Below, piece after piece: positions 1-24,959 of a stretch of 64,000 bases of DNA. Positions within the stretch are counted from its first letter, which is position 1. Every line of letters begins with the position of its first letter. The notes beneath the pieces are model-generated. The model was not told the DNA's origin. It was given only the letters and a program-made list of their open reading frames with translations, and ran no database searches. The position numbers and the translations under genes were made by a program. Source of the stretch: Mobula hypostoma (taxonomy: Eukaryota); contig NW_026948140.1 of assembly GCF_963921235.1 (NCBI RefSeq), forward strand, positions 248,001 through 312,000, read 5' to 3'.

Positions 1-230
1 AGCGCCTTAAAACTATAGCCTCTCGTGCTAGCCATTTCAGCCCTGGAAAAAAGCCTCTGACTATCCACACGATCAATGCTTCTCATTATCTTGTACACCT
101 CTATCAGGTCACCTCTCATCCTCCGTCGCTCCAAGCAGAAAAGGCCAAGTTCACTCAACCTATTCTCGTAAGGCATTCAGGCAACATCCTTGTAAACCTC
201 CCCTGCACCCTTTCTATGGTTTCCACGTCC
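1..230 (-). mobile_element. CR1 LINE ORF2 3' fragment (subfamily B), cut by window edge
   Basis: Matches other minus-strand CR1 3' parts in the window (8200-8400, 12480-12647) that encode MRGDLIEVYK...FPRAEMA. Confidence 0.8.
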
Positions 231-3200: not shown

Positions 3201-4765
3201 TCTTGCATTGAGGTACACACACTTCAGTCCTTCTACCTTACTGTCTTTACACCGTTTATTCTGCTTCTCTTTCCTCAAAGCCTCTCTATATGTTAGATCT
3301 GGCTTTACTCCAGGCATTTCTTTCACTGCTCTATTTCTCTAGGTCCCATCCCCCTTGCAAATTAGTTTAAACCCTCGCGAACCAGGCCAGCAAACCTACC
3401 TGCAAGGATATTGCTCCCCCTCAAGTTCAGGTGCAACCCATCCAATCTGTACAGGTCCCACCTTCCCCAGAAGAGATCCCAATGATCCAAAAATCTAAAA
3501 CCCTGCTCCCTGCACCAACTCCTCAGCCACGCATTCAACTGCCGTCTCCTCCAATTCTTACCATCACTGTCACGTATACTGGCAGCAATCCTGAGAGCGC
3601 CACCCTTGAGGTCCTGTTCTTCAGCCTTCTGCCTAGTTCCCGAAACTCACACTTCAGGACCTTATCCCTCTTCCTGCCTATGTCATTGGTCCCAACATGT
3701 ATCACGACTTCTGGTTGTTTTCCCTCGTACCAGGACGTCGTGCACCTGGTCAGAGACACCCCGGACCCTGGCACCCGGGAGGCAACAAACCATGCGGGTG
3801 TCCTTCTCACGTCCACAAAATCTCCTGTCTGCTTCCCTGACTATAGAGTCTCCAATGACGACAGCTCTCTCTTCTCCGTCCCACCCTTCTGCACCACCGG
3901 GTCAGACTCAGTGCCAGGGGTCCTGTCACCGTGGCTCACACCTGGTCGGTCGTCCCCGCCAACAGTATTTTTTTTGCAATTACATTTATATGATGGGTCC
4001 AGGACAGATCCTACGAGATATTAACACCCAGAAATTTAAAGTTACTGACGCACTCCACCTCTGATCCTCTGATGAGAACTCACTCATACACCTCTGGTTT
4101 CCCTCTCCTGAAGTCTATAATTAGTTCCGTGGTCTTGCTGATATTGAGTGAGAGGCTGTTGTTATGACACCACTCACCAAATTTTCAATCTTCCTCCTGT
4201 ATGCTGATACAGCCCACAACAGTGGTGTCATCAGCAAACCTGAATACGGTGTTCGAGCTGTGCTTAGCCAGTGGAGCAGGGGCTAAGCACACAGCCCTGA
4301 GGTGCACCTGTGCTGATGGAGATTGTGGAGGAGATTTTGCTAATCTCAACTGACTGGGGTCTGCAGGTGAAGATATCCAAGGTCCAATTGCACAAGGTTG
4401 TACTGAGGCCCAGGTCTTGGAGCTTACTGATTAGTTTTGAGGGGATGATGGTATTGAATGCTGAGCTGTAATCAATAAACAGCATTCTTTGCTGTCCAAA
4501 TCTTCCAGGGTTGTGTGAAGAGCGAGTGAAATGGCATGTGCTGTGGACCTGTTGCTCTGGTAGGCAAATTGAAGTGGATCCAAGTCCTGACTCAGACAGG
4601 AGCCGATATGTTTCATTACCAGCCTCTCAAAACACTTCATCACTGTAGATATAAGTGCAACTGGTTGATAGTTCTTGGGAAAGTCACCACGCTTTTTTTG
4701 GGTACTGGTATGATTGAAGCCTGCTTGAAGCAGGTGGGTACCACACAATGCCAAATCAAGAGGAG
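231..4765 (-). mobile_element. Rex1/Babar-type LINE RT fragment in two parts (231-437 and 3968-4765), split by a CR1 insertion
   Basis: Minus-strand peptides [41 protein letters not shown] and FKFLGVNIS*DLSWTHHINVIAKK; the reading continues across the CR1 as QQHLYFLRSL. The same motifs occur in the Rex1 copy at 42438-43670. Confidence 0.85.
438..3968 (-). mobile_element. CR1 LINE subfamily A, truncated within ORF1, frameshifted
   Basis: ORFs 386-1135, 1296-1685, 1758-2519 and 2979-3326 give APE (CVYLNARSIRNK, MGDFNFP) and RT ([23 protein letters not shown]); esterase remnant VVIHVGTND; (atagaac)n tail at 438. Confidence 0.95.
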
Positions 4766-4767
4766 AA

Positions 4768-5324
4768 GATAGAAACATAGAAACATAGAAAATAGGTGCA
4801 GGAGTAGGCCATTCGGCCCCTCGAGCCTGCACCGCCATTTATTATGATCATGGCTGATCATCCAACTCAGAACCCAGCCTTCCCTCCATACCCCCTGACC
4901 CCTGTAGCCACAAGGGCCATATCTAACTCCCTCTTAAACATAGCCAATGAACTGGCCTCAACAGTTTGCTGTGGCAGAGAATTCCACAGATTCACCACTC
5001 TCTGTGTGAAGAAGTTTTTCCTAATCTCGGTCCTAAAAGGCTTCCCCTCTATCCTCAAACTGTGACCCCTCGTTCTGGACCTCCCCAACATCGGGAACAA
5101 TCTTCCCGCATCTAGCCTGTCCAATCCCTTTAGGATCTTATACGTTTCAATCAGATCCCCCCTCAATCTTCTAAATTCCAACGAGTACAAGCCCAGTTCA
5201 TCCAGTCTTTCTTCATATGAAAGACCTGCCATCCCAGGAATCAATCTGGTGAACCTTCTTTGTACTCCCTCTATGGCAAAGATGTCTTTCCTCAGATTAG
5301 GAGACCAAAACTGCACACAATACT
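4768..5324 (-). mobile_element. CR1 subfamily C 3' fragment (young)
   Basis: ORF 4867-5316 is nearly identical to the C-terminus of ORF 14709-16382; (atagaaac)n tail. Confidence 0.95.
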
Positions 5325-5956
5325 ATACAAATCTTTAGTATTCAACCATTGTCGGGAGTAGGCCAGTGGCGAGAGTAGAAGCAACAGTCTTTGGCTCAAA
5401 AAAGGCTTTGGCCCAGAAGAGGTGTCAGCTCTCTAAAGTGTCTGTTAAGGTTTCCTTTTTTTTTTCATTTTCCTCTCTTACTGTACCATTTAAATGGCGG
5501 TGGTATGCTCTTCGTGCTGGATGTTGGAGAACTGGGAGACCCAGAGTCTCCTGGGAAACTACATCTGCATGAAGGTCATCCGGCTGCAGCTCCTTGAAGA
5601 CCGTGTTAGGGATCTGGAGCAGCAACTGGTTGACCTTCGGCTTGTACAGGAGAGTGAGGAGATAATCAGAGTTACAGGGAAGTAGTCACCTCGAAGTTGC
5701 AGGAGGTGAGTAGCTGGCTGACTGTCAGGAGAAATAGAAATAGCTCGAGCAGAGACCCCTGTGGCCATTCCCTTCAAATACAAGTATACCGCTTTGGATA
5801 CTTTGTGGGGGATGACCTCCTGGGGGAATGCCGTGATGACCGGGTTTCAGGGACTGAGCATGGGTCTGTGGTGCAGAAGGGAAAGAGAGAGAAGAAGGGA
5901 GCAGTAGTGATAGGGGACTCGATAGTGAAGAGAACAGACAGGAGATTCTGTGGCAT

Positions 5957-5978
5957 ACCCTAATCCTAACCCTAACCC
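5957..5978 (-). repeat. Short interstitial telomeric-type repeat, ~3.5 units of (TTAGGG)
   Basis: Plus strand reads a-ccctaa-tcctaa-ccctaa-ccc inside CR1 ORF1, where sister copies encode REKDT. Confidence 0.7.
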
Positions 5979-8406
5979 GGTTGGTATGTTGCCTCCCAGG
6001 TACCAGGGTCAAGGATATCTCAGATCACGTCCACAACATTTTGGACAGGGAGAGAGAACAGCCAGATGTCTTGGTACATATTGGTACCAATGACATAGGA
6101 AGGAAGAGCAAAGAGGTCCTGAAAAAAGAATTTAGAGAGCCACGTAGAAAGCTGAGAAGCAGGACCTCCCGGGCAGTAACTTCTGGATTGGTGTCTGTGC
6201 CACATGCCAGTGAGGGTAGAAGCAGGATAATTTGGCAAAAGGAATTGCTCTAAAGGAAATAGATCCATACGTTACAGAGTACTCTTCACTCTTTGATGTC
6301 AAAAATCTCACAACCTCATTGTGACTAGAAACACGATCATTTGACAAAGTAATGTGTGGCTGACAAGCTGGTGCAGGGGGCAGGGCTTCAGGTTCTTGGA
6401 TCTTTGGGATCTCTTCTGGAGGAGGTATGACCTGTTCAAAAGTGACTGGTTGCACCTAAACCTGAGGGGAAAGAATATTCTTGTGGGCAGGTTTATTAGA
6501 GCCTTTGGGGAGGGCTTAAACTAATTTGGCAGGGGTGGGAACTGGAGTGAACAGACTCAGGATAGGACAGATGGTAAAAGAGTAAAGATAGCGTGCAGAC
6601 AGACTGTTAGGTAGGGCAGGCAGGTAATGGGACTTAGCTGCAGCCAACAGGCTGTGTATCAAATCATTAGGGATGCAGAGTCAGAAAGGACAGCAAATAT
6701 GGTACTCAAGTGTTGTATCTAAATATGCGTAGCGTAAGAAATAAGGTGAATGATCTTGTTGCACTATTACAGATTGCCAAGTATGATATGGTCATCTCTG
6801 AATCGTGGTTGAAGGATAGTTGTAGTTGGGAGATAAATGTCCAAGGTTACACATTATATTGGAGAGATAGGGAGGTAGGCAGAGGGGGTGGTGTGGCTCT
6901 ATTGGTGAAGAAGGACATCAAATCAGTAGAAAAATGTGACTCAGGATCGGAAGATGTTGAATCCTCGTGGGTTGAGTTAAGAAACTGCAAGGGTAAAAGG
7001 ACCTTGATGGCGAGTCAAAAGGGCAATGTTATGGTAGTCAGGGGAGATTTTAACATGCAGGTCGATTGGGAAAATCAGGTTGGTAATGGATCTCAAGAGA
7101 GTGAATTTGTTGAATGCCTAAGAGATGGCTTTTTTTGAGCAGTTTGTTGTTGAGCCTACTAGGGGATCAGCTATACTGGATTAGTTGTTATGCAATGAAC
7201 CGGAGGCGATTAGGGAGCTTAAGGTAAAAGAACCCTTAGGAACCAGTGATCACAATATGATTATGTTCAATTTGAAATTTGATAGGGGGAAAGTAAAGTC
7301 TGATGTAGCAGTGTTTCAGTGGAGTAAGGGAAATTACAGTGGTATGAGAGAGGAGTTGGCCGAAGTATATTGGAAGGAGCTGCTGGCTGGGATGTCAGCT
7401 GAGCAGCAATGGCGTGAGTTTCTGGGAAAAATGAGGAAGGTGCAGGACATGTGTATTCCAAAAATGAAGAAATACTCAAATGGTAAAATAGTACAACCGT
7501 GGCTGACAAGGGAAGTCAAAGCTGTTGTAAAAGCAAAAGAAAGGGCATACAACAAAGCAAAAATTACTGGGAAGATAGAGGAATGGGAAGTTTTTAAAAA
7601 TCTACAGAGACCAACTAAAAATCATTAAAAGGGAAAAGATGAAATATGAAAGCAACCTGGTAAATATTAGCTTAGTGGATAGTTAAAGTTTATCAAGTTA
7701 TGTTAAAAATAAAAGAGAAATGAGAGTGGATATAGGACCGCTAGAAAATGAGGCAGGAGCAATAATAATAGGGGAAAAGGAGATGGCAGAACAACCAAAT
7801 GAATATTTTGCATCAGTCTTCACTGTGAAAGACACTAGCATTTTGCCTGATGTTGTAGTGTGTGAAGGAAGAGAAGTGGGTGCAGTTACTATTACAAGAG
7901 AGAAGGCGCTCAAAAATTTGAAAGACCTAAAGGTACATAAGTCACCTGGACCAGATGAACTAGAAACGTAGAAAACCTACAGCACAATACAGCTCCTTGG
8001 CCCACAAAGCTATGCTCAACATGTACTTACTTTAGAAATTTCCTAGGGTTACCCATAGCCCTCTATTTTTCTGAGCTCCATGTACCTATCCGAGCCTCTT
8101 AAAAAACCCTATTGTATCCGCCTCCAACGTCGTCACCAGCAGCCCATTCCACACACTCACCACTCTCAGCATAAAAAACCTACCCCTGACATCTCCTCTG
8201 TACTTACTTCCAAGCACCTTAAAACTGTGCCCTCTCATGCTAGCCATTTCAGCCCTGGGAAAAAGCCCCTGACTATCCACACGATTAATGCCTCTCATCG
8301 TCTTATACTCCTCTATCAGGTTACCTCTCACCCTCCACTGCTTCAAGGAGAAAAGGCCAAGTTCATTCAACCTATTCTCATAAGGCATGCTCCCCAATTC
8401 AGGCAA

Positions 8407-8925
8407 TAGTCATAGTCATACTTTATTGATCCTGGGGGAAATTGGTTTTCATTACAGTTGCACAATAATAAATAGTAATAGAAATAATAATAGTAATACT
8501 ACTATTAGTAAATAGTAATAGTCATGGAAATAATAAATAGTAATAGACTAGTAATAGAAAAATAGTAATAAATAGTTAAATAGTCATATGTAAATTATGC
8601 TAGTAAATTATGAAATAAGTCCAGGACCAGCCTATTGGCTCAGGATGTCTGACCCTCCAAGGGAGGAGTTGTAAAATTTGATGGCCACAGGCAGGAATGA
8701 CTTCCTATGACGTTCTGTGCTGCATCTCAGTGGAATGAGTCTCTGGCTGAATGTACTCCTGTGCCCACCCAGTACATTATGTAGTGGATGGGAGACATTG
8801 ACCAAGGTGGCATGCAACTTAAGACAGCATCCTCTTTTCAGACACCACCGTGAGAGAGACCAGTTCCATCCCCACAACATCACTGGCCTTACGAATGAGT
8901 TTGTTGATTCTGTTGGTGTCTGCTA
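8407..8925 (-). mobile_element. Rex1/Babar-like 3' end with (tgacta)n tail
   Basis: C-terminal peptide SHPLHNVL...TERHRKSFLPVAIKFYN; minus-strand aataaa followed by tatgactatgacta; AT-rich (aatagt)n tract at 8465-8600. Confidence 0.75.
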
Positions 8926-9127
8926 CCCTTGTAAATCCTTGTAAATCTCCTCTGCACCCTTTCTATAGTTTCCACAACCTTCCTGTAGTAAGGGGAACAG
9001 AACTGAGCACAGTACTCCAAGTGGGGCCTGACCAGCATCCTATATAGCCAATGCATCGTATGCCTTCTTAACCACAGAGTCAAACTGCGCAGCAGATTTG
9101 AGTGTCCTATGGACTTGGACCCCAAGA

Positions 9128-9790
9128 TTAGATTAGATTAGATTATGAGGACACACAGTCCTCTTTTGTTGTCATTTAGTAATACATGCATTAAGAAATG
9201 ATACAATGTTCCTCCAAGATGATATCACAGAAACACAAGACAAACCAAGACTGAAAAACTGACAAAAACCACATAATTATAACATATAGTTACAACAGTG
9301 CAAAGCACTACTGTAATTTGATAAAGAACAGACCATGGGCACGGTAAAAAAAAAAGTCTCAAAGTCTCTCGAAAGTCCCATCTCATGAGGACAGTAGAAG
9401 GAAGAAAAACTCTCTCTGCCATGAGCTTCCAGCGCCACAAATTTGCTGATGCAGCACCCTGGAAGCACCCGACCACAGCCTACTCTTGAGTCCGTCCGAA
9501 AACTTCGAGCCTCCGACCGGCCCTCCAACACCGAGCACCATCTCTGCCGCGCGCTTCGACCCCGGCCCTGGCAACAGGCAATAGGCAAAGACGAGCATTT
9601 GGGGCCTTCCTCTCCAGAGATTCTGGACCACACAGTAGCAGCGGCAGCAAAGCGGGCATTTCAGAAGTTTCTCCAGATGTTCCTCTGTGCTTCTCACGTC
9701 TGTCTCCATCAAATCAGGTACCTACTTACAAATACGATATCATTTCGGAGCGGCTGCGCACGCTGCGTCGCCCTGTCATCTTCTCCTCCC
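9128..9790 (-). mobile_element. Non-coding ~0.66 kb retroposon (SINE-like), copy 1, (taatc)n tail
   Basis: Reverse complement aligns along most of its length with 11037-11720; tail reads (ttaga)n on plus; interrupts a CR1 that resumes on both sides. Confidence 0.85.
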
Positions 9791-11011
9791 CTCCTCCAAT
9801 CCTTGACACTGTCAAGAGTCTTACCATTAATACTATATTCTGTTATCATATTTGACCTACCAAAATGAACCACCTGACATTTATCTGGGTGATAACTGCA
9901 CCCAAGGGTTCTAAAAAAGATAGTATTACAGATCGTGGTGGCATTAGAAATGATCCTTCAAAAATCATTGGACTCTGGCATGGTGCCAGTGAACTGGAAA
10001 ATTGCAAATGTCACTCCACTCTTTAAGAAAGGAGGAAGGCAGCAGAAAAGAAATTATAGACGAGTTAGCCTGACCTCAGTGGTTGGGAAGATGTTGGAGT
10101 CAATTGTTAAGGATGAGGTGATGGAATATTTGGTGACGCAGGACAAGATAGTACAAAGTTATCATGGTTTCCTTCAGGAAAAATCCTGCCTGACGAACCT
10201 GTTGGAATTCTTTGAGGAGTTTACAAGTAGGATAGATAAAGTGGATAGATGCAGTGGATGTTGTATATTTGGACTTTCAGAAGGCCTTTGACAAGGTGAT
10301 ACACATGAGGCTGCTTACCAAGTTAAGAGCCCATGGTATTACAGGAAAGTTACTAAAATGGTTAGAGCATTGGCTGATTGGTAAGAGGCAGTGAGTGGGA
10401 ATAAAAGGATCCTTTTCTGTTTGGCTACCAGTGACTAATGGTGTTCCGCAGGGGTCGGTGTTGGGACCGCTTCTTTAAATGCTGTACATAAATAACTTAG
10501 ATGAGGAAATAAATGGCTTTGTTGCCAAGTTTACAGATGATATAAAGATTGGTGGAGGGGCAGGTAGTGTTGAGGAAACAGGTAGGATTGAGAAGGACTT
10601 AGACAGATTAGCAGAATGGGCAAGAAAGTGGCAAATGAAATACAAAACTGGAAAATGCATGGTAATGCACTTTGGTAGTAGAAATATATGTGCAGACTAT
10701 TTTCTAAATAGGGAGAAACTCCAAAAATCTGGGATACAAAGGGACTTGGGAGTCCTTGTGCAGAACACCCTAAAGGCTAACTTGTAGGTTGAGCCGGTGT
10801 TGAGGAAGGCAAATGCAATGTTAGAATTCATTTCAAGAGGTCTAGAATACAAGAGCAAGGATGTGACGCTATGGCTTTTTAAGACACTGGTGAGGCCTCA
10901 CCTTGAGTATTGTGAACTGCTTTGGGCCCCTCATCTTAGAAAAGATGTGAAGCATTGGAGGGGGTCCAGAGGAGGTTCATAAAGATGATTCCAGCAATGA
11001 AAGGGTTATCT

Positions 11012-11720
11012 TTCATTGGAGAGGATTGGAGCGTTGGAGAGGAGAAGATGGCCGCGCAACACAGCTCGCAGTGGCCACTCTGGTGGTGATGTCTGTTATT
11101 TGTCAAGCAGGGAGCTCTGTACAATCCTGATTTGATGGAGACGGATGTGAGAGCACAGAGGAACATCTGGTGAAACTTCTGAAATGCCTGCTTCGCTGCT
11201 GCTGCTACTGAGTGGTCCGAAATCTCCGAAGGCGAAGGCCCCGAGTCCTCGACTTTGCTTGTTGCTCGGCAGCCGGGGCGGGGTCGAAGCGCTTGGCAGA
11301 GGATGGTGCTCAGAGAGGCTGTGTTGGAAGGGCTGGTAGGAGGCTCGAAGTTTTCGGACGGACTCAGAGTCTACTGCGGTCAGGTGCTTCCAATGGTGCT
11401 GCATCGGCAAGTTTGCGGCGCTTGGAGGTTCATGGCAGGGAGAGTTTCTCCCTTCTACCGCCTGCGTGAGTGATGAGTCTATCGGGACTTGAGACTTTTT
11501 TTTTACCGTGCCCGTGGTCTGCTCTTTATCAAGTTATGGTACTGCTTTGCACTGTTGTAACTATATGTTATAATCATGTGATTTTGTAAGTTTTAGTCTT
11601 GGTTTGTCCTGTGTTTTTTTTTCATTCTGGAGGAATGTTGTATCATTTTTTTTAATACATGCATTTCTAAATGACAATAAATGAGGCCTGAGTGTCCTCA
11701 TAATCTAATCTAATCTAATC
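11012..11720 (+). mobile_element. Non-coding ~0.7 kb retroposon (SINE-like), copy 2
   Basis: Starts near ggagaagatggc; CpG-rich body; ends aaatgacaataaa, hairpin, (taatc)4. Splits the CR1 codons GLS|YKVRLM. Confidence 0.85.
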
Positions 11721-12244
11721 TTACAAGGTACGTTTGATGGCTCTGGGAATCGCTGGATTGCTGGAATTCAGAAGGATGAGGGGTATTCTTGTTGAAACCT
11801 TTGGAATGTTGAAAGGTACAGACAGAGTAGATGTGGAAAGGTTGTTTCCCATTGTGGGAGAGTCTAGGACAAGAGGACACAGCATCAGGAAAGAGGGGTG
11901 CCCTTTCAAAATAAAGACGCAGAGAACTTTCTTTAGCCAAAGGGTGGTGAGTTAGTGGAATTTCTTGCCACATGCAGCTGTAGCCAGGTCTTTGGGTGTA
12001 TTTAAGGCAGAGATTAATAGGTTCTTGATTGGACATGGCATTAAAGGTTATGGAGAGAAGGCCGGGAACTGGGATTGAGGTGGAAAAAAAAAGGATCAGC
12101 CATGATTGAATGGCGGAGCAGACTCGATGGGCCAGATGGCCTAATTCTGCTCCTATAGCTTCCGGTCTTATGGTCCTTTTCCCTGTCTGGACCAGATGCT
12201 TTCATTGCATTCACCCTCCTGAAGGCAGCTTCAGATACTTAAAA

Positions 12245-12647
12245 TATAGAAATCTACTGCACATTACAGGTCCTCCGGCCCACAATGTTGTGCCGACCAT
12301 GTGACCTGCTCTAGAAACTGCCTAGAATTTCGCTATCACATTGCCTTCTATTTTTCGAAGTTCCATCTACCTATGCAGGAGTCTTATATTCGCCTGCACC
12401 ACCTTAGCTGGCAGTACATTCCACACACACAGCACCTTCTGAGTGAAAAACTTACCTTTGACATCCCCCTTGTTCCAGCTTCCAAGCACCTTAAAACTGT
12501 GCCTTCTCGTGCTAGCCATTTCAGCCCTCGGAAAAAGTCTCTGGCTATCCACACAATCAATGCCTCTCATCATCTTATACACCTCTATCAGGTCACCTCT
12601 CATCCTCTGTCACTCCGAGGAGAATAGGCTAAGTTCACTCAACCTAT
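12245..12647 (-). mobile_element. CR1 subfamily B 3' fragment
   Basis: ORF 12367-12603 MRGDLIEVYKMMRGIDCVDSQRLFPRAEMA. Confidence 0.85.
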
Positions 12648-12711
12648 GGCTGTACTTTTTTTCCATAGGTGCTGCCTGGCCTGCTGAGTTCCTCCAGCGA
12701 TTTGTGTGTTG
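12648..12711 (+). mobile_element. Penelope terminal-repeat fragment (type 2)
   Basis: ctgtactttttttccataggtgctgcctggcctgctgagttcctccagc matches 25149-25196 and 22574-22619. Confidence 0.75.
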
Positions 12712-13848
12712 ATCCAACTCCTTTACTCAGTGTCCTGACTGATGAAGGTCAGTATGTGAAAAGCCCTTTACATTAATCTATTTATCTGTGAGGTTGCTTT
12801 CAGCAAACTGTGCACATGTTCCAGGTCTCTCTCTTCTAATATACTCACTAGTGCCCTACCATTCAAAATATAAGTCCTACACTGGTTTGACTTTCAAAAA
12901 TGCATCACTTCAGGACAACTAGTTGGAGAGTTGGGCCACTCCAGGACAATGGAGGGAATTTATGCTCAAACACTGGATATGGGTAAGATGATACTTTGCA
13001 TCAGTATTCACCAAGGACATAGAACAGTGCAGTGCAGGACCACTCCTTAGGACCACAATGCCTATCTAAATGAATCCCTTCTGCCTACGCAATGTGCCCT
13101 GTACATATATACATGTACTTATCCAAAAGCCTCTTAAAATACCTCTATTAAATTTGCCTTCACTACCCTCACACACCTTAAATGCCTAAGCTCTAACATT
13201 AGAGATTATAGAACATAGAATAGTACTGCACAGTACAGGCCCTTCGGCCCACAATGTTCTGCCGACCCTCAAACCTTGCCTCCCATATAAGCCCCACCTT
13301 AAATTCCTCCATATACCTGTCTAGTAGTATCTTAAGCTTCACGAGTGTATCTGCCTCCACCACTGACTCAGGCAGAGCGTTCCATGCACCAACCACTCTC
13401 TGAGGTAAAAACCTTCCTCTAATATCCTCCTTGAACTTTTCACCCCTTACCTTAAAGCCATGTCCTCTTGTATTGAGCAGTGGTGCCCTGGGGAAGAGGC
13501 GCTGGCTATCTACTCTATCTATTCCTCTTACTATCTTGTACACCTCTATCATGTCTCCTCTCATCCTCCTTCTCTCCAAAGAGTAAAGCCCTAGCTCCCT
13601 TAATCTCTGATCATAATGCATACTCTCTAAACTAGGCATCCTAGTAAATCTCCTCTATACCCTTTCCAATGCTTCCAAATCCTTCCTATAGTGAGGCGAC
13701 CAGAACTGGACACAGTACTCCAAGTGTGGCCTAACCAGAGTTTTATAGAGCTGACAACAGGAATTCTGCAGATGCTGGAAATTCAAGCAACACACATCAA
13801 AGTTGCTGGTGAACGCAGCAGGCCAGGCAGCATCTATAGGAAGAGGCG

Positions 13849-13885
13849 CAGTCGACGTTTCAGGCCGAGCCCCTTCGTCAGGACT
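13849..13885 (-). ncRNA. Minimal type I hammerhead ribozyme motif in Penelope terminal repeat
   Basis: Minus strand agtc-CTGACGA-aggggctcggcct-GAAA-cGTC-gactg: intact catalytic core, stem I agtc/gact, palindromic ACGT stem III. Confidence 0.8.
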
Positions 13886-14499
13886 AACTGAAGGAAGAGT
13901 GAGTAAGGGATTTGAAAGCTGGAGGGGGAGGGGGAGATGCAAAATGATAGGAGAAGACAGGAGGGGGAGAGATAGAGCCGAGAGCTGGACAGGTGATAGG
14001 CAGAAGGGGATATGAGAGGATCATGGGACAGGAGGTCTGGGAAGAAAGACGGAGGGGGGGGTGACCCAGAGGATGGGCAAGAGGTATATTCAGAGGGACA
14101 GAGGGAGAAAAAGGAGAGTGAGAGAAAGAATGTGTGCATAAAAAAGAGTAACAGATGGGGTACGAGGGGGAGGTGGGGCCTAGCGGAAGTTAGAGAAGTC
14201 AATGTTCATGCCATCAGGTTGGAGGCTACCCATACGGAATATAAGGTGTTATTCCTCCAACCTGAGTGTGGCTTCATCTTTACAGTAGAGGAGGCCGTGG
14301 ATAGACATGTCAGAATGGGAATGGGATGTGGAATTAAAATGTGTGGCCACTGGGAGATCCTGCTTTCTCTGGCGGACAGAGCGTAGATGTTCAGCAAAGC
14401 GGTCTCCCAGTCTGCGTCGGGTCTCACCAATATATAAAAGGCCACATCGGGAGCACTGGACGCAGTATATCACCCCAGTCGACTCACAGGTGAAGTGAT

Positions 14500-16480
14500 T
14501 AGCCAGAGAAAGTGGCTCACCTGAGGACTGGGAGAAATTCAGAGTTCAGCAGAGGAGGACAAAGGGCTTAATTAGGAAGGGGAAAAAAGATTATGAGAGA
14601 AAACTGGCAGAGAACATAAAAACGGACTGTAAAAGCTTTTATAGATATGTAAAAAGGAAAAGACTGATAAAGACAAATGTAGGTCCCCTGCAAACAGAAA
14701 CAGGTGAATTGATTATGGGGAGCAAGGACATGGCAGACCAATTGAATAATTACTTTGGTTCTGTCTTCACTAAGGAGGACATAAATAATCTTCCAGAAAT
14801 AGTAAGGGACAGAGGGTCCAGTGAGATGGAGGAACTGAGCGAAATACATGTTAGTAGGGAAGTGGTGTTAGGTAAATTGAAGGGATTGAAGGCAGATAAA
14901 TCCCCAGGGCCAGATGGTCTGCATCCCAGAGTGCTTAAGGAAGTGGCCCAAGAAATAGTGGATGCATTAGTGATAATTTTTCAAAACTCGTTAGATTCTG
15001 GACTAGTTCCTGAGGATTGGAGGGTGGCTAATGTAACCCCACTTTTTAAAAAAGGAGGGAGAGAGAAACCGGGGAATTATAGGCCGGTTAGCCTAACGTC
15101 GGTGGTGGGGAAACTGCTGGAGTCAGTTATCAAGGATGTGATAACAGCACATTTGGAAAGCGGTGAAATGATCGGACAAAGTCAGCATGGATTTGTGAAA
15201 GGAAAATCATGTCTGACGAATCTCATAGAATTTTTTGAGGATGTAACTAGTAGAGTGGATAGGGGAGAACCAGTGGATGTGGTATATTTGGATTTTCAAA
15301 AGGCTTTTGACAAGGTCCCACATAGGAGATTAGTGTGCAAACTTAAAGCACACGGTATTGGGGGTAAGGTATTGGTGTGGGTGGAGAATTGGTTAGCAGA
15401 CAGGAAGCAAAGAGTGGGAATAAACGGGACCTTTTCAGAATGGCAGGCGGTGACTAGTGGGGTACCGCAAGGCTCAGTGCTGGGACCCCAGTTGTTTACA
15501 ATATATATTAATGACTTGGATGAGGGAATTAAATGCAGCATCTCCAAGTTTGCGGATGACACGAAGCTGGGTGGCAGTGTTAGCAGTGAGGAGGATGCTA
15601 AGAGGATGCAGGGTGACTTGGATAGGTTGGGTGAGTGGGCAAACTCATGGCAGATGCAATTTAATGTGGATAAATGTGAAGTTATCCACTTTGGTGGCAA
15701 AAATAGGAAAACAGATTATTATCTGAATGGTGGCCGATTAGGAAAAGGGGAGGTGCAACGAGACCTGGGTGTCATTATACACCAGTCATTGAAAGTGGGC
15801 ATGCAGGTACAGCAGGCGGTGAAAAAGGCGAACGGTATGCTGGCATTTATAGCGAGAGGATTCGAGTACAGGAGCAGGGAGGTACTACTGCAGTTGTACA
15901 AGGCCTTGGTGAGACCACACCTGGAGTATTGTGTGCAGTTTTGGTCCCCTAATCTGAGGAAAGACATCTTTGCCATAGAGGGAGTACAAAGAAGGTTCAC
16001 CAGATTGATTCCTGGGATGGCAGGTCTTTCATATGAAGAAAGACTGGATGAACTGGGCTTGTACTCGTTGGAATTTAGAAGATTGAGGGGGGATCTGATT
16101 GAAACGTATAAGATCCTAAAGGGATTGGACAGGCTAGATGCAGGAAGATTGTTCCCGATGTTGGGGAGGTCTAGAACGAGGGGTCACAGTTTGAGGATAG
16201 AGGGGAAGCCTTTTAGGACCGAGGTTAGGAAAAACTTCTTCACACAGAGAGTGGTGAATCTGTGGAATTCTCTGCCACAGCAAACTGTTGAGGCCAGTTC
16301 ATTAGCTATGTTTAAAAGGAAGTTAGATATGGCCCTTGTGGCTACAGGGGTCAGGGGGTATGGAGGGAAGGCTGGGTTCTGAGTTGGATGATCAGCCATG
16401 ATCATAATAAATGGCGGTGCAGGCTCGAAGGGCCGAATGGCCTACTCCTGCACCTATTTTCTATGTTTCTATGTTTCTAT
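14500..16480 (+). mobile_element. CR1 subfamily C, 5'-truncated, uninterrupted RT frame (young)
   Basis: 557-aa ORF 14709-16382 without stops; (tttctatg)n tail; TSD gtgat at 14495-14499 and 16481-16485. Confidence 0.96.
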
Positions 16481-19400
16481 GTGATGCCTCACCTGGAAGG
16501 ACTGTTTGGGGCCCTGAATGGTGCTAAGGGAGGAAGTGTAAGGGCATGTGTAGCACTTGTTCCGCTTACACGGATAAGTGCCAGGAGGGAGATCAGTGGG
16601 GAGGGATGGGGGGGCGAATGGACAAGGGAGTTGTGTAGGGAGCGATCCCTGCGGAATGCAGAGGGGGGGGGAGGGAAAGATATGCTTAGTGGTGGGATCC
16701 CGTTGGAGGTGGCGGAAGTTACGGAGAATAATATGTTGGACCCGGAGGCTGGTGGGGTGGTAGGTGAGAACCAGGGGAACCCTATTCCTAGTGGGGTGGT
16801 GGGAGGATGGAGTGAGAGCAGATGTACGTGAAATGGGGGAGATGCGTTTAAGAGCAGAGTTGATAGTGGAGGAAGGGAAGCCCCTTTCTTTAAAAAATGA
16901 AGACATCTCCCTCGTCCTAGAATGAAAAGCCTCATCCTGAGAGCAGATGCGGTGGAGACGGAGGAATTGCGAGAAGGGGATGGCGTTTTTGCAAGAGACA
17001 GGGTGAGAAGAGGAATAGTCCAGATAGCTGTGAGAGTCAGTAGGCTTATAGTAGACATCAGTGGATAAGCTGTCTCCAGAGACAGAGACAGAAAGATCTA
17101 GAAAGGGGAGGGAGGTGTCGGAAATGGACCAGGTAAACTTGAGGGCAGGGTGAAAGTTGGAGACAAAGTTAATAAAGTCAACGAGTTCTGCATGCGTGCA
17201 GGAAGCAGCGCCAATGCAGTCGTCGATGTAGCGAAGGAAAAGTGGGGGACAGATACCAGAATAGGCACGGAACATAGATTGTTCCACAAACCCAACAAAA
17301 AGGCAGGCATAGCTAGGACCCATACGGGTGCCCATAGCTACACCTTTAGTTTGGAGGAAATGGGAGGAGCAAAAGGAGAAATTATTAAGAGTAAGGACTA
17401 ATTCTGCTAGATGGAGCAGAGTGGTGGTAGAGGGGAACTGATTAGGTCTGGAATCCAAAAAGAAGCGTAGAGCTTTGAGACCTTCCTGATGGGGGATGGA
17501 AGTATATAGGGACTGGACATCCATGGTGAAAATAAAGCGGTGGGGGCCAGGGAACTTAAAATCATCGAAAAGTTTAAGAGCGTGAGAAGTGTCACGAACA
17601 TAGGTCGGAAGGGATTGAACAAGGGGTGATAAAACAGTGTCGAGGTATGCTGCATCATTACATCACGACTCTTAAACTCTATCCCTCGACTTATGAAAGC
17701 TAACACCCCATAAGCTTTCTTAACTACCCTATCCACCTGTGAGGCAACTTTCAGGGGTCTGTGGACATGTACCCCGAGATCCCTCTGCTCCTCCACACTA
17801 CCAAGTATCCTGACATTTACTTTGTACTCTGCCTTGGACTTTGTTCTTCCAAAGTGTACCACCTCACACTTCTCTGGGTTTAACTCCATCTGCCACTTCT
17901 CAGCCCACTTCTGCATCCTATCAATGTCTCTCTGCAATCTTTGACAATTCTCTACACTATCTACAACACCACCAACATTTATGTCATCTGCAAACTTGCC
18001 AACCCACCCTTCTACCCCCACATCCAGGTCGTTAATAAAAATCACGAAAAGTAGAGGTCCCAGAACAGATCCTTGTGGGACTCCACTAGTCACAATCCTC
18101 CAATCTGAATATACTCCCTCCACCATGACCCTCTGCGTTCTGCAGGCAAGCCAATTCTGAATCCACCTGGCCAAACTTCCCTGGATCCCATGCCTTCTGA
18201 CTTTCTGAATAAGACTACTGTGTGGAACCTTGTCAAATGCCTTACTAAAATCCATGTAGATTACATCCACTGCACTATCCTCATCTATATGCCTGGTCAC
18301 CTCCTCAAAGAACTCTATCAAGCTTGTTAGACACGATCTGCCCTTCACAAAGCCATGCTGACTGTCCCTGATCAGACCATTCTCTAAATGCCCATGATTC
18401 TCTAAACGCCCAGAGATCCTATCTCTAAGAATTTTTTCCAACAGCTTTCCCACCACAGACGTACGGCTCACTGGTCTATAATTACCCGGACTATCCCTAC
18501 TACCTTTTTTGAACAAGGGAACAACATTCGCCTCCCTCCAATCCTCTGGTACCATTCCCATGGACAACGAGGACATAAAGATCCTAGACAGAGGCTCAGC
18601 AATCTCTTCCCTCACCTCGTGGAGCAGCCTGGGGAATATTCCATCAGGCCCCGGGGTCTTATCCGTCCTAATGTATTTTAACAACTCCAACACCTCCTCT
18701 CTCTTAATATCAACATGCTCCAGAACATCAACCTCACTCGTATTGTCCTCACCGTCATCAAGTTCCCTCTCATTGGTGAATACCAAAGAGAAGTATTCAT
18801 TGAGGACATCGCTCACTTCCACAGCCTCCAGGCACATCTTCCCACCTTTATCTCTAATCGGTCCTACCTTCACTCCTGTTATCCTTTCGTTCTTCACATA
18901 ATTGAAGAATGCCTTAGTGTTTTCCTTTAATCTACTCGCCAAGGCCTTCTCTTGCCCGCTTCTTGCTCTTCTCAGCCCCTTCTTAAGCTCCTTTCTTGCT
19001 TCCCTATATTCCTCAATAGACCCATCTGATCCTTGCTTCCTAAACTTCATGTGTGCTGCCTTCTTCCACCTAACCTGATTTTCCACCTCACTTGTCACCC
19101 ATGGTTCCTTCGCCCTACCATTCTTTATCTTCCTCACCGGGACAAATTTATCCCTAACATCCTGCAAGAGATCTCTAAATATCGAACACATGTCCATAGT
19201 ACATTTCCCTGCAAAAATATCATCCCAATTCACACCCGCAAGTTCTAGCCTTATAGCCATAATTTGCCCTTGCCAAATAAAAATTTTCCTGTCCTTTCTG
19301 ATTCTATCCTTTTCCATGATAATGCTAAAGGCCAGGGAGCAGTAGTCACTGTCACCCAGATGCTCACCCACTGAGAGATCTGTGACCTGACCCGGTTCAT

Positions 19401-21056
19401 TACCTAGTACTAGATCTAGTATGGCATTCCCCCTGGTCGGCCTGTCCACATACTGTGACAGGAATCCGTCCTGGACACACTTAACAAACTCTGCCCCATC
19501 TAAACCCTTGGAACTAATCAGGTGCCAATCAATATTAGGGAAGTTAAAGTCACCCATGATAACAACCCTGTTATTTTTGCACCTTTCCAAAATCTGCCTC
19601 CCAATCTGCTCCTCTGTATCTCTGCTGCTACCAGGTGGCCTATAGAATACCCTCAACAGAGTAACTGCTCCCTTCCTGTTCCTGACTTCCACCCATACTG
19701 ACTCAAAAGAGGATCCTGCTACATTACCCACCCTTTCTGTAGCTGTAATAGTATCCCTGACCAGTAATGCCACCCCTCCTCCCCTTTTTCCACCCTCTCT
19801 ATCCCTTTTAAAGCACTGAAATCCAGGAATATTGAGAATCCATTCCTGCCCTGGTGCCAGCCAAGTCTCTGTAATGGCCACTACATCATAATTCCATGTA
19901 TGTATCCAAGCTCTCAGTTCATCACCTTTGTTCCTGATGCTTCTTGCATTGAGGTACACACATTTCAGCCCTTCTACCTTACTGCCTTTACACTGTTTAT
20001 TCTGCTTCTCTTTTCTCAAAGCCTCTCTGTATGTTAGACCTGGCTTTACTCCAGGCACTTCTTTCACTGCTCTATCGCTCTGGGTCCCATCCCCCTTGCA
20101 AATTAGTTTAAACCCTCCTGAACCATGCTAGCAAACCTACCTGCAAGGATAATGCTCCCCTTCGAGTTCAGGTGCAACCCATCCAATCTGCACAAGTCCC
20201 ACCTTCCCCAGAAGTGATCTCAATGATCCAAAAATCTAAAACCCTGCTCCCTGCACCAACTCCTCAGCCACGCATTCAACTGCCATCTCCTCCAATTCTT
20301 ACCATCACTGTCATGTAGCACTGGCAGAAATCTTGAGAGCACCACCCTTGAGGTCCTGTTCTTCAGCCTTCTGCCTAGTTCCCAAAACTCACACTTCAGG
20401 ACCTCATCCTTCTTCCTGCCTATGTCATTGGTCCCAACATGTATCACGACTTCTGGATGCTTTCCCTCTCGTACCAGGATGTCGTGCACCCGGTCAGAGA
20501 CATCCGGGACCCTGGCACCCGGGAGGCAACAAACCATGCGGGTGTCCTTCTCACGTCCACAAAATCTCCTGTCTGCTCCTCTGACTATAGAGTCTCCAAT
20601 GACGACAGCTCTCCTCTTCTCCGTCCCACACTTTTGCACCATAGGGTCAGGCTCGGTGCCAAAGGCCGTGCCACCGTGGCTCACACCTGGTCGGTCGTCC
20701 CCGCCAACAGTATCCAGGACGGTAAACTTATTATTCAGGGGAATGGCTGCAGGGGTGCTCTGCACTACCTGTCTGCTCACCTTCACTTTTCCCCCTCTGA
20801 CTGTCACCCAACGACCTGCTTCCGACAGCCTAGGTGTGACTACCTCTCTGTAGCTCTCATCTATGACTGCCTCATTCTGCCTTATGAGTCGAAGGTCATC
20901 CAGCTGTATCTTTTGGCATTGTCTGTCTATGTAATGCGAATAGCAGTGGACATTGTGGGTTAGTGTTGTGTTTTTCAGTGGAAAAGCACGCATTTGACGC
21001 TGATTGCGGGATTGGTGCGTGATTTACATTGTGCGCTGTGGGTCGGATGCTCTGTT

Positions 21057-22222
21057 AGAAACCATAGAAACTACGGCACAGAAACAGGCCTTTTGGCCCT
21101 TCTTGGCTGTGCTGAACCATTTTCTGCCTAGTCCCACTGACCTGCACACGGACCTTATCCCTCCATACACCTCCCATCCATGTATCTGTCCAATTTATTC
21201 TTAAATGTTGATAAAGAACCCACGTTTACCACCTCATCTGGCAGCTCATTCCATACTCCCACCACTCTCTGTGTGAAGGAGACCCCGCTAAAGTTCCCTT
21301 TAAACTTTTCCCGCCTCACCCTTAACCCATGTTCTCTGGTTTTTTTTCTCCCCTTGCCTCAGTGGAAAAAGCCTGCTTGCATTCACTCTGTCTATACCCA
21401 TCATAATTTTATATACCTCTATCAAATCTCCCCTCATTCTTCTACGCTCCAGGGAATAAAATTCTGACCTATTCAACCTTTCTCTGTAACTGAGTTTCTC
21501 AAGTCCTGGCAACGTCCTTGTAAACCTTCTCTGCACTCTTTCAACCTTATTTATATCCTTCCTGTAATTTGGTGACCAAAACTGAACACAATACTCCAGA
21601 TTTGGCCTCACCAATGCCTTATACAACCTCATCATAACATTCCAGCTCTTATACTCAATACTTTGATTAATTAGGACCTATGTACCAAAAGTTCTCTTTA
21701 CGACCCTATCTACCTGTGACACCACTTTTAGGGAATTTTGTATCTGTATTCCCAGATCCCTCTGTTCCACTGCGCTCCTCAGTGCCTTACCATTAACCCT
21801 GTATGTTCTACATTGGTTTGTCCTTCCAACGTGCAATACCTCACACTTGTCTGTATTAAACTCCATCTGCCATTTTTCAGCCCATTTTTCCAGCTGGTCC
21901 AAGTCCCTCTGCAGGCTCCGAAAACCTTCCTCACAGTCTACTACACCTCCAATCTTTGTATCATCAGCAAATTTGCTGATCCAATTTACCACATTATCAT
22001 CCAGATCATTGATATAGATGACAAATAACAATGGACCCAGCACTGATCCCTGTGGCACACCACTAGTCACAGGCCTCCACTCAGAGAAGCAATTCTCTAC
22101 TACCACTCTTTGGCTTCTTCCATTGAACCAATGTCTAATCCAATTTACCACCTCTCCATGTATACCTAGCGACTGAGTTTTCCTAACTAACCTCCCATGC
22201 GGGACCTTGTCAAAGGCCTTAC
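21057..22222 (-). mobile_element. CR1 subfamily D 3' part (RT to tail)
   Basis: ORFs 21678-22286 ([21 protein letters not shown]) and 21300-21635; tagaaacca tail. Confidence 0.92.
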
Positions 22223-22502
22223 TGTTGGTTTGTTTGTTTATGCTCCGTGTTGCCTGGGTTGTCTCTGATGCTGTTGACACTGTCACAGTTCACTTCTATA
22301 TTATATCTATCAATTGCTGTTGCTTGTGAATCAACAGAGGCATTTATAGTAGGCACATAATGCTTGAAACTGACTTTCGAATGCCATGCATCTGGCCTTG
22401 CGAATACATATTACCATAGGGTACATCCCTCAGCACCATTACTGAATAATTCAGCCCCACTGTAGCACCAGCAAGAAAAAATCTCGGCGCCACTGCTGCC
22501 GC

Positions 22503-22635
22503 CCACTTCCTTTATAGGGCCTCTGCCCCCTCCCTCTTCAGTCCTGACAAAGGGTTCCGGCCCGAAACGTTGACTGCTCATTTCCATGGATGCTGCCCGG
22601 CCTGCTGAGTTCCTCCAGCGTGTTGTGCGTGTTGC
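22503..22635 (+). mobile_element. Penelope terminal-repeat fragment (type 2) with mutated hammerhead
   Basis: cagtc-CTGACAA-agggttccggccc-GAAA-cgtt-gactg at 22539-22576, then gatgctgcccggcctgctgagttcctccagc. Confidence 0.8.
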
Positions 22636-22835
22636 CAGATCGTTGCTCGTTGCTTCAGCCAGTGTGGTAAATCACGTTCTCGACCGCCTAGAATTGTGTA
22701 TTCCAAGTTCTGTTTCTGCGTTGTTTGCCTGTGTTAACTCAGTCTCTCGGCCGCCTAGAACTGTGTATTCTAAGCAACACACATCAAAGTTGCTGGTGAA
22801 CGCAGCAGGCCAGGCAGCATCTCTAGGAAGAGGTA

Positions 22836-22872
22836 CAGTCGACGTTTCAAGCCGAGACCCTTCATCAGGACT
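22836..22872 (-). ncRNA. Minimal hammerhead ribozyme motif
   Basis: Minus strand agtc-CTGATGA-agggtctcggctt-GAAA-cGTC-gactg. Confidence 0.75.
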
Positions 22873-23255
22873 AACTGAAGGAAGAGTAAGGGATTTGAAA
22901 GTTGGAGGGGGAGGGGGAGATCCAAAATGATAGGAGAAGACAGGAGGGGGAAGGGATGGAGCCAAGAGCTGGACAGGTGATAGGCAAAGGGGATAGAGAG
23001 GATCATGGGACAGGAGGTCCGGGAAGAAAGACGGGGAGGGGGAACCAGAGGATGGGCAAGGGGCATATTCAGAGGGACCGAGGGAGAAAAAGGAGAGTGA
23101 GAGAAAGAATGTGTATAAAAATAAGTAACAGATGGGGTACGAGGGGGAGGTGGGGCATTAGCGGAAGTTAGAGAAGTCGATGTTCATGCCATCAGGTTGA
23201 AGGCTACCCAGACGGAACATAAGGCCCTGATCCCTTACTCACTCTTCCTTCAGTT

Positions 23256-23292
23256 AGTCCTGACGAAGGGTCTCGGCCTGAAACGTCGACTG
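23256..23292 (+). ncRNA. Minimal hammerhead ribozyme motif
   Basis: agtc-CTGACGA-agggtctcggcct-GAAA-cGTC-gactg; predicted cleavage after position 23287. Confidence 0.82.
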
Positions 23293-23709
23293 TACCTCTT
23301 CCTAGAGATGCTGCCTGGCCTGCTGCGTTCACCAGCAACTTTGATGTGTGTTGCTTGAATTTCCAGCATCTGCAGAATTCCTGTTGTCTGTGTATTCTAA
23401 GTTTTGTTTTGCGCTGTTGTTTCGCTTTGTTAACTCTGCCTCTCCGTGTTAACAGGAGCATGGCATGCCGCCCACCGTTCTCCTCCCGCCACACCTCATC
23501 CCGCCGCCCGTCTGCACTCTCCGCCGGATCAGCGGTTAAACGCTGCGTTCTCATCGTAGTGACCTGGGTTTGATCCCTGATCCAGCCTCGCTCACTCCTC
23601 GGCTTTCCTCTGCCTAATCCTCGCTCCCCGGCCTTCTCTGCAACCATTAATACACACTCTTCTGATTAAGTGTCCTGCGTTTGGGTTCGCCCGTTTTCCG
23701 TGCAACACA

Positions 23710-24050
23710 GGCACAGTAATACTGGACAAGGAATGGAAGAAAGCAATAGTAATATAGCAATCCTGTAACATCAGGAAGAAAGATTGTGAGAAGCTGGAGA
23801 AAAACTAGGGATTGAAAGAGCAGATAGAAAGGATGTGGAAGGTCAAAACCAGAGTAATCCCGGTGGTGATAGGGGCACTTGGGGCTGTTACACCTGGACT
23901 GGGAGAGTAGCTTCAACAAATCCCGGGAACAACATCTGAGGTCTCGGTCCAGAAGAGCGCACTACTCGGAACAGCAAGGATACTGTGCTGAACCCGAGAC
24001 TGAGGGAAAAATCGCGCACACCACGCATGAGGGGTGACTATATATATATA
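23710..24050 (+). mobile_element. R4/Dong (Rex6-like) non-LTR element 3' end with restriction-like endonuclease remnant
   Basis: Manual translation across frameshifts and stops: VILDKEWKKAIVI...NIRKK..EKLEK..GLKEQIERMWKVKTRVIPVVIGALGAVTP...VQKSALLGTARIL; followed by (ta)n. Confidence 0.8.
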
Positions 24051-24537
24051 ATACCCTGTGTATTATATTCAATAAATAAAAAATAATTATTTACCAAATT
24101 CCTAGGTGAGACAAGAACTGTATTCTGAAATCATATTTGCGTTTAGCTTCAAGCAATTTAACATAAACAAAAAATTCTGAGGAAGCAACACTTCCTGCTT
24201 TTTTTTTCTGTCAGTGATATTGATAATGGTTTAATTCCCCCATATACTGATTACGGGTGGAGATCCCAGGAGCTTCGGCGCCCGGTGGATTTGGCGGTCC
24301 TGCGAACTTTTCATCGGCACTTCGTTCCCAGGGCTGCCGCCGATGAGGATTTAACTGGCGAAGGTTCCTCCCCACGGGAGTCACCTCTTCCCGCTCGACA
24401 TTATCCGTGCATCCCTGCGTCTCCTCTTCCCCAGCCCGACTGCCAGCCCCGTTTCTCCCCGACTAGTGTCACCCATCCCCATCTCTAGAGTTCTTTCCCT
24501 TCTGTTTGCAGTCATTCCATCACCGATCCCTCCTCAC

Positions 24538-24696
24538 CTTAATCGAATACACCATGGCAGTTAAGCCCAAGCAGCAGAAATTCATGTAGAACAGATTGAA
24601 GATGGACCAGGGCAGGTGATCGTGGACGGGAATCACGGCAGGCACCACCTGAACCGTGCGAGGAGCCATTGAGACCTGGTCACTTCTGTACTCCAT
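24538..24696 (-). CDS. Coding exon 1 of an IFITM/dispanin (CD225 family) gene, 53 codons
   Basis: MEYRSDQVSMAPRTVQVVPAVIPVHDHLPWSIFNLFYMNFCCLGLTAMVYSIK carries the CD225 signature (DH..WS.FN...N.CCLG..A..YS.K). It ends at the donor AAG|GTGAG at the conserved IFITM intron position; Kozak context agaATGG; CpG-rich surroundings. Confidence 0.9.
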
Positions 24697-24850
24697 TCTG
24701 GACTGGTGCGGGACAGCGGGGAGTGCAGGCAAGATGCGAAAAGGAGGGTTTCTCGAAACCAACGAACTGCGTAAACAGGTCAACAGAGGCGCGTGTGCTG
24801 GCACTCCAGATTTAGGAGGCGTGGCAAACGTTAACTGGGTGTGATGTGAC
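24697..24850 (-). promoter_or_regulatory. Putative 5'UTR/promoter of the IFITM-like gene with a GAS/ISRE-like palindrome
   Basis: CpG-rich non-TE sequence; ggtttc-tc-gaaacc at 24747-24760 fits TTNCNNNAA on the minus strand; adjacent gaaac/gaact half sites. Confidence 0.4.
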
Positions 24851-24959
24851 GATTGGACATGGGTGAACTAATTCCTCCTTCACCTGTGCTCCATGCCCCA
24901 CCATTCAGACGCGACAGAACTACAGAATTAAGTGATGGTAAGGACCCTGTATTTGGAGA

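What the first reader, a model, noticed from the sequence alone, without database searches (positions are those of the whole stretch)
24538..24696. Intact IFITM/CD225 first exon buried in a TE pile-up, with no exon 2 in the downstream 24.5 kb
Seen: a clean 53-codon exon with the CCLG motif, a good Kozak context and a GT donor; it is the only host coding exon I found. I found no SRDRK-type exon 2 between 24537 and 1. Established: IFITM genes usually have two coding exons, split after YS(V/I)K, and mammalian ones are compact. Inference: either the intron has grown beyond 24 kb by nested insertion or this is an orphaned paralog of an antiviral gene cluster.
Basis: partly seen in the sequence, partly recalled or inferred. 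Interest (0 to 1): 0.7.

Follow-up and report, generated by a model that had tools for sequence, protein, structure and literature searches.

The report
Ray IFITM gene with long intron
This is the first coding exon of an ordinary, already annotated two-exon IFITM-like membrane-protein gene of a ray, and its second exon most likely lies beyond the window edge because jumping genes have stretched the intron past 24 kb.

Summary
Observation confirmed. 24696-24538 (-) is an intact 53-codon CD225 exon (Pfam 33.2 bits) with strong Kozak and AAG|GTGAGG donor; no exon 2 lies anywhere in the window (tblastn, HMM, DNA motif). It is 53/53 identical to the start of RefSeq XP_062895189.1, a complete 109-aa Mobula hypostoma dispanin-A2b-like model, one of three paralogs on one contig, each with its own exon 2. 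The exon 2 given to this copy groups (99/99) with stingray orthologs, so the pairing is old and an orphan is unlikely. Three RNA-type runs join exon 2 (SRDRKVVGDI) exactly at 24538, but contigs reaching copy-diagnostic sites belong to a paralog, so splicing of this copy is not shown. Nested insertion is visible: LINE > Penelope-like > LINE at 13.2-20.9 kb. TE-swollen introns are normal in elasmobranchs. The true intron length could not be measured. The scan noted a sibling IFITM gene 76 kb away before (e1-7813945). Side lead: skate and Narcine RefSeq isoforms splice two different CD225 first exons onto one exon 2. Verdict: known gene, low interest.

The parts
24538..24696 (-). Coding exon 1 (53 codons) of a dispanin subfamily A 2b-like / IFITM-like gene: variable N-terminus, amphipathic-helix region, CC motif, ends in phase 0 after YSIK
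   Evidence: 53/53 identical to XP_062895189.1 residues 1-53
24532..24537 (-). 5' splice donor GTGAGG
   Evidence: RNA-type contigs of the family leave the genome exactly at 24538 (table 7)
24697..24760 (-). Putative 5' UTR / proximal promoter, CpG-enriched; likeness to the paralog transcript ends at 24728; one palindromic TTC-N2-GAA site at 24750-24757 (chance level)
   Evidence: CpG o/e 0.72-0.88 against window median 0.30
1..24537 (-). First 24.5 kb of intron 1 (inferred); 82% matches other repeat copies in the window, 12,402 bp at 90% identity or more
   Evidence: no exon 2 and no second CD225 first exon
13208..20906 (-). Outer CR1-type LINE (esterase ORF1, endonuclease-RT ORF2), split at 17649/13753 by a later insertion, 4-bp duplication
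   Evidence: 94% identical to the copy at 45486-48900 on both sides of the break; Pfam; junctions
13754..17648 (-). Middle layer: Penelope-like retroelement inserted in the outer LINE (class label recalled; RT hit below Pfam cut-off)
14498..16480 (+). Inner layer: 5'-truncated CR1-type LINE of a second family with 8-bp repeat tail, inserted in the Penelope-like element; 5-bp duplication read by eye
   Evidence: 94.5% identical to 31738-33718; tail; junctions printed
437..3968 (-). Second long young copy of the outer LINE family
   Evidence: 94% identical to 45486-48900

Best explanation
The exon is coding exon 1 of a normal two-exon dispanin-A/IFITM-like gene, one of at least three tandem paralogs in a myliobatiform ray. 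Transcription starts just upstream on the minus strand; the phase-0 donor at 24537 is spliced to the gene's own exon 2 (SRDRK..., the 'type B' C-terminus shared with stingrays), which lies left of the window, giving a 109-residue membrane protein. The intron exceeds 24.5 kb because CR1-type LINEs and Penelope-like elements kept inserting, partly into one another. Shown: exon identity, donor position used in the family, absence of exon 2 in the window, nested insertions, existence of a full-length model and of orthologs. Inferred: that this copy is itself transcribed and spliced, where exon 2 lies, and that the protein acts like IFITM1-3 (palmitoylated at the CC motif, oligomerising through GxxxG, stiffening membranes against fusion).
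For: 53/53 identity to a complete RefSeq model. Three models on one 729,289-bp contig (XP_062895188, 189, 190) have three distinct first halves and three distinct second halves. The exon 2 paired with this exon groups with Hypanus XP_059832278.1 and Hemitrygon XP_072903842.1 at 99/99 support, each paired there with a first exon 44-46/53 identical to this one. 3 of 3 RNA-type runs laid (2 studies) end on the genome at 24538 and continue with exon-2 letters, while the DNA run continues into the intron. All 7 amino-acid differences from the expressed paralog lie in residues 5-25, none in the CD225 core 26-53. Nested insertions. Elasmobranch introns are known to be lengthened by CR1-like and Penelope-like elements (10.1101/443036; 10.1101/2025.06.08.657570); repeats are 61-66% of batoid genomes (10.64898/2026.10.27.761883).
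Against: The junction evidence is not copy-specific: the RNA-type contigs that reach the 10 diagnostic sites carry the paralog's letters, and the junction contig of X20 covers only a stretch without such sites. The RefSeq model is a prediction whose RNA support and coordinates I could not see. This copy has the longest exon-1 branch among its class (0.12) and 8 non-synonymous against 2 synonymous differences from the paralog (my count), compatible with relaxed constraint on the N-terminus. Exon 2 was never located: no genome is held for this window.
Confidence: 0.8

Rival explanations
1. Orphaned or silenced duplicate: the exon (or the whole gene) is no longer expressed in this species and the RefSeq model merely chains it to a distant exon 2 by protein similarity.
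For: Junction contigs that can be assigned belong to a paralog. An intact 53-codon frame with donor is weak proof of function: in a toy simulation it survived 2-6% neutral change in 54-15% of trials. The downstream DNA has taken up many young insertions, more bases of them in the gene's sense orientation than against it (5,580 against 3,293 for one LINE ORF). An unchecked note reports a spare half-exon in a sibling gene.
Against: Three exon 1 and three exon 2 sequences pair off on one contig; the partner exon 2 is intact and has orthologs in two stingrays; no amino-acid change in the CD225 core; strong start, donor and CpG-rich flank.
Confidence: 0.1
2. Variable first exon: the exon is one of several CD225 first exons that share or swap exon 2s across the cluster, so the long gap exists because it must jump over another first exon or reach a neighbour's exon 2.
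For: In Amblyraja, Leucoraja and Narcine, RefSeq isoforms X1 and X2 have identical exon 2 and different CD225 first exons (19-22 of the last 30 residues alike); this exon is of the X1 class. An unchecked note describes two exon-1 cassettes and one exon 2 in a sibling gene 75,847 bases left of the window. Known in bats (PMC11801718).
Against: No second first exon within the 24.5 kb. The three Mobula models are separate records without isoform labels, and no X2-type protein of a myliobatiform ray was among the 120 listed of 398 hits or the 39 hits.
Confidence: 0.07
3. Single-exon truncated product: transcripts read through the donor (…YSIK-VRRDR-stop, 58 residues) or end on a TE-derived last exon, giving a half-CD225 peptide.
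For: The frame stays open for 5 codons past the donor; 12 AATAAA/ATTAAA words lie downstream on the sense strand, the first at 24235.
Against: All three RNA-type runs show the canonical junction at 24538; the only 3 candidate hydrophobic phase-0 last exons are inside repeats; the conserved dispanin splice site is at this place (PMC3282796).
Confidence: 0.02

Closest known systems
RefSeq XP_062895189.1, dispanin subfamily A member 2b-like, Mobula hypostoma (P0002)
   Same: Residues 1-53 identical to this exon; the break falls at the K|S of YSIK|SRDRK.
   Different: Nothing in exon 1; the model's remaining 56 residues are not in the window.
Paralogs XP_062895190.1 and XP_062895188.1 (P0003, P0011); Torpedo marmorata DSA2B (Q91499, P0007)
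   Same: Same length class (107-109 aa), same MEYR-type first exon (45-46/53 identical for the paralogs), same junction.
   Different: They carry the 'type A' C-terminus (32-33/56 identical in exon 2); the RNA contigs that could be assigned match the XP_062895190-type letters.
Mammalian IFITM1-3
   Same: CD225 domain, two coding exons split at the same site, CC motif, GxxxG (G61-G65 of P0002), clustering in tandem.
   Different: Intron over 24 kb; third palmitoylation cysteine replaced by serine; no YxxPhi endocytic motif in the N-terminus; no ISRE core within 1.3 kb upstream; orthology to IFITM1-3 not established.
Rhinolophus sinicus IFITM with alternative first exons (PMC11801718) and batoid X1/X2 isoform models
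   Same: A CD225 first exon of the X1 class that in skates and Narcine shares exon 2 with a second first exon.
   Different: No second first exon found here in 24.5 kb; this copy is annotated as a gene of its own.

Membership tests
CD225 / dispanin family | CD225 domain (PF04505) above the curated cut-off | tested here: met
   exon alone 33.2 bits, full model 89.8 bits, cut-off 27.1
CD225 / dispanin family | [quoted passage not shown] | tested here: met
   phase-0 donor after YSIK; family RNA-type contigs join SRDRK at 24538; feature from PMC3282796
CD225 / dispanin family | Double-cysteine motif in the first hydrophobic segment | tested here: met
   C41, C42 invariant
Dispanin subfamily A / IFITM-like | Two coding exons, 102-157 residues | tested here: inconclusive
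   RefSeq model of 109 aa fits; exon 2 not located in DNA, splicing of this copy not seen
Dispanin subfamily A / IFITM-like | Tandem cluster of paralogs | tested here: met
   three models on one 729,289-bp contig; paralogous genomic contig with 10 differences in 149 nt; spacing not measured
Dispanin subfamily A / IFITM-like | Synteny with B4GALNT4 / ATHL1 | not testable with these tools
   no genome held; no neighbouring gene in the window
Immune IFITM1-3 type | GxxxG oligomerisation motif | tested here: met
   G61-D-I-E-G65 in P0002, encoded by exon 2 outside the window; feature from PMC7665892
Immune IFITM1-3 type | Third palmitoylated cysteine (C105 of IFITM3) | tested here: not met
   serine in the batoid proteins where rodent P0125 has cysteine
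Immune IFITM1-3 type | YxxPhi endocytic motif (IFITM2/3) | tested here: not met
   N-terminus reads MEYRSD; no YxxPhi, as in IFITM1-like proteins
Immune IFITM1-3 type | ISRE in the promoter | tested here: inconclusive
   no GAAA-N1/2-GAAA core within 1.3 kb upstream, one at 1,397 bp (0.6 expected per 2.5 kb); one GAS-like palindrome at chance level; patterns recalled, shark consensus unknown
Immune IFITM1-3 type | Interferon induction and restriction of virus entry | not testable with these tools
   needs cells

The most novel reading that the evidence does not exclude
Batoid IFITM clusters work as variable/constant arrays: several CD225 first exons, each with its own promoter, are spliced combinatorially to more than one exon 2 over tens of kb. 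This exon would then be a cassette that can join either its own type-B exon 2 or the type-A exon 2 of the sibling about 100 kb away, an arrangement kept since skates, electric rays and stingrays split.
Probability: 0.07. Interest if true: 0.5.

Novelty: already known. Interest (0 to 1): 0.13.

Why it matters
As it stands it matters little: an annotated paralog whose intron is longer than the DNA in view. It is a tidy example of how a 330-bp coding sequence can sit in a gene tens of kb long in a repeat-rich ray genome, with the growth mechanism (three nested retroelements) readable in the sequence. The only lead of wider interest is outside the window: predicted alternative CD225 first exons sharing one exon 2 in three batoid species, which would extend the bat-type IFITM diversification strategy to cartilaginous fishes; no paper holding both 'IFITM' and 'elasmobranch' was found.

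Tried and rejected
Whole-genome search for exon 2: no genome is held for this window, so the intron length stays open. PDB sequence search with the exon: 0 hits. Sequencing-run search: no listed holder on record as RNA; blank, no evidence either way. In the 3 RNA-type runs laid (4 of 24 listed runs were laid), no listed contig carried this copy's letters at the diagnostic sites and none covered the intron side; contigs drop rare variants and 157 pieces were not shown, so this is not evidence of silence. Exon 2 or its remnant in the window, either strand: rejected. Second first exon or remnant of the exon's flanks in the window: rejected. Allele or RNA editing as the cause of the 10 differences in RNA: rejected, the same 10 stand in a separate genomic contig and match paralog P0003. 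Assembly gap: no N, and DNA contigs tile 24050-24951 without differences (possibly the source sample, so not independent). Rfam: 0 matches. Promoter motifs: nothing above chance. TE orientation bias as a test of transcription: too few elements to decide. Exon-1 tree: 10 of 16 inner branches open, so gene conversion between paralogs could not be established. The script missed the 5-bp duplication of the inner LINE because its search range was set too narrow; it was read by eye. Look-ups of earlier findings by sequence, near place and words returned nothing.

Full report
Observation. The minus strand from 24696 to 24538 gives 53 codons without a stop, with the CCLG motif at residues 41-44. The start has A at -3 and G at +4, and the exon ends in phase 0 at AAG|GTGAGG. 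Pfam finds the first half of CD225 (PF04505, 33.2 bits, cut-off 27.1, profile positions 2-30 of 68). The flank is CpG-enriched (o/e 0.72-0.88 against a window median of 0.30). Exon 2 is absent from the whole window on both strands: tblastn with the exon-2 parts of 8 batoid proteins gave nothing better than E 0.06; an HMM from 116 of 123 fetched homologues scored at most -1.8 bits, against at least 68 bits for its own training exons, while the matching exon-1 HMM, built without the identical protein, found this exon alone at 66.7 bits; a 20-base motif from the true start of exon 2 had no match at 3 mismatches. There is no N in the window.

Identity. The exon is 53/53 identical to the start of XP_062895189.1, a 109-residue 'dispanin subfamily A member 2b-like' RefSeq model of Mobula hypostoma. 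Two paralog models, XP_062895188.1 and XP_062895190.1, are on record for a contig of the same length, 729,289 bp; their first halves are 45 and 46 of 53 identical to this exon, their second halves only 32 and 33 of 56 identical to that of XP_062895189.1. So three first exons and three second exons pair off. The second exon assigned to this copy forms a clade with Hypanus XP_059832278.1 and Hemitrygon XP_072903842.1 (99/99; 16 exon-2 rows, the three X2 rows left out because they duplicate X1). The gene lineage is therefore older than the split of devil rays and stingrays, which argues against a stray exon. I could not see the model's coordinates or RNA support.

Splicing. Four of 24 listed runs were laid on 24050-25030. 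All three RNA-type runs (two studies; RNA status is the tool's guess) stop matching exactly at 24538 and go on with letters that I translated by hand as S-R-D-R-K-V-V-G-D-I, the start of exon 2; the DNA run continues into the intron. This fixes the junction for the family. It does not fix it for this copy: where contigs reach the 10 sites that separate this copy from its paralog they carry the paralog's letters, the same 10 differences stand in a separate genomic contig, and they translate to the XP_062895190-type protein. The seven amino-acid differences all lie in residues 5-25, none in the CD225 core, which fits constraint on the domain or recent conversion of its 3' part; the exon-1 tree is too poorly resolved to decide. 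Likeness between paralogs is confined to the exon and about 30 bases of 5' UTR.

The gap. 82% of 1-24537 matches other repeat copies within the window (64% upstream of the exon), and 12,402 bases match at 90% identity or more. Using elements from the upstream part as references, a CR1-type LINE spanning 20906-13208 is broken at 17649/13753 with a 4-bp duplication; the 3.9-kb insert is a Penelope-like element, itself broken by a 2-kb 5'-truncated LINE of another family at 14498-16480 with a 5-bp duplication (read by eye). Endonuclease, RT and esterase domains are from Pfam; the class names CR1 and Penelope are recalled. [quoted passage not shown] An unchecked note of this scan places a 20,398-base sibling IFITM gene 75,847 bases left of the window (e1-7813945). 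If that is right and the genes are not interleaved, the intron here is 24.5-100 kb and a sibling already spans about 20 kb. I could not check this.

How it most likely works. A promoter just upstream drives a long minus-strand pre-mRNA; the strong donor is joined to the type-B exon 2; the 109-residue product has the CC motif and the GxxxG motif, which in IFITM3 serve palmitoylation and oligomerisation-dependent membrane stiffening (PMC9716219 and PMC7665892, passages). It lacks the third cysteine and a YxxPhi motif, and no ISRE core lies within 1.3 kb, so it is a member of dispanin subfamily A by domain and splice site (PMC3282796, passages; PMC3424830, passages), while interferon induction and antiviral action are extrapolated, not shown. 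Confidence 0.8; orphan or silent copy 0.1; shared or swapped exon 2 0.07; truncated read-through 0.02.

Side lead. RefSeq isoforms X1 and X2 of Amblyraja, Leucoraja and Narcine have identical second exons and different CD225 first exons (19-22 of the last 30 residues alike). The exon here is of the X1 class. The skate X2 exons group with the first exon of a neighbouring skate paralog (99/98), so they may be duplicated first exons that lost their own exon 2, or read-through models. Alternative first exons of IFITM are known in horseshoe bats (PMC11801718, passages and two sections). No such cassette lies in this window, and no X2-type protein of a myliobatiform ray was listed (120 of 398 hits shown; 39 hits). 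Searches for papers on elasmobranch IFITMs found none devoted to them; 'IFITM' with 'elasmobranch' gave 0 papers in the held library.

Verdict. A real, intact exon of an already annotated gene; the missing exon 2 is best explained by a TE-swollen intron running off the window. Already known; interest 0.13.

Noticed in passing
window 62110-62778 (+): Intronless SUDS3 (SDS3)-like retrocopy: 216 open codons, three PDB SDS3 fragments match (best E 1.7e-33), a stop six codons before the apparent natural end, 5' end abutting a LINE at about 62100, an A-rich run near 63172-63186.
   Followed up: partly
   Followed up: partly
run X20, contig laid at window 24563-24610: A more distant dispanin-A transcript (8 differences in 48 nt) whose junction side reads, by hand, ...AVAFSVKAR, an IFITM5/10-like signature (label recalled).
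   Followed up: no
window 24523-24537 (-): Read-through past the donor gives VRRDR-stop, which resembles the SRDR start of exon 2; probably chance.
   Followed up: partly
window 40566-41968: 1.4-kb stretch not repeated in the window, with the highest CpG o/e (0.85-1.0) and internal short direct repeats; may be a DNA transposon remnant (guess); no Rfam match.
   Followed up: no
window 28866-31326 (+): Nearly intact non-LTR element of another clade with RT and RNase H (645-codon frame).
   Followed up: partly
window 55594-55790: Tandem array, 6.2 copies of a 32-bp unit at 99% match, within a region of further short tandem repeats.
   Followed up: no
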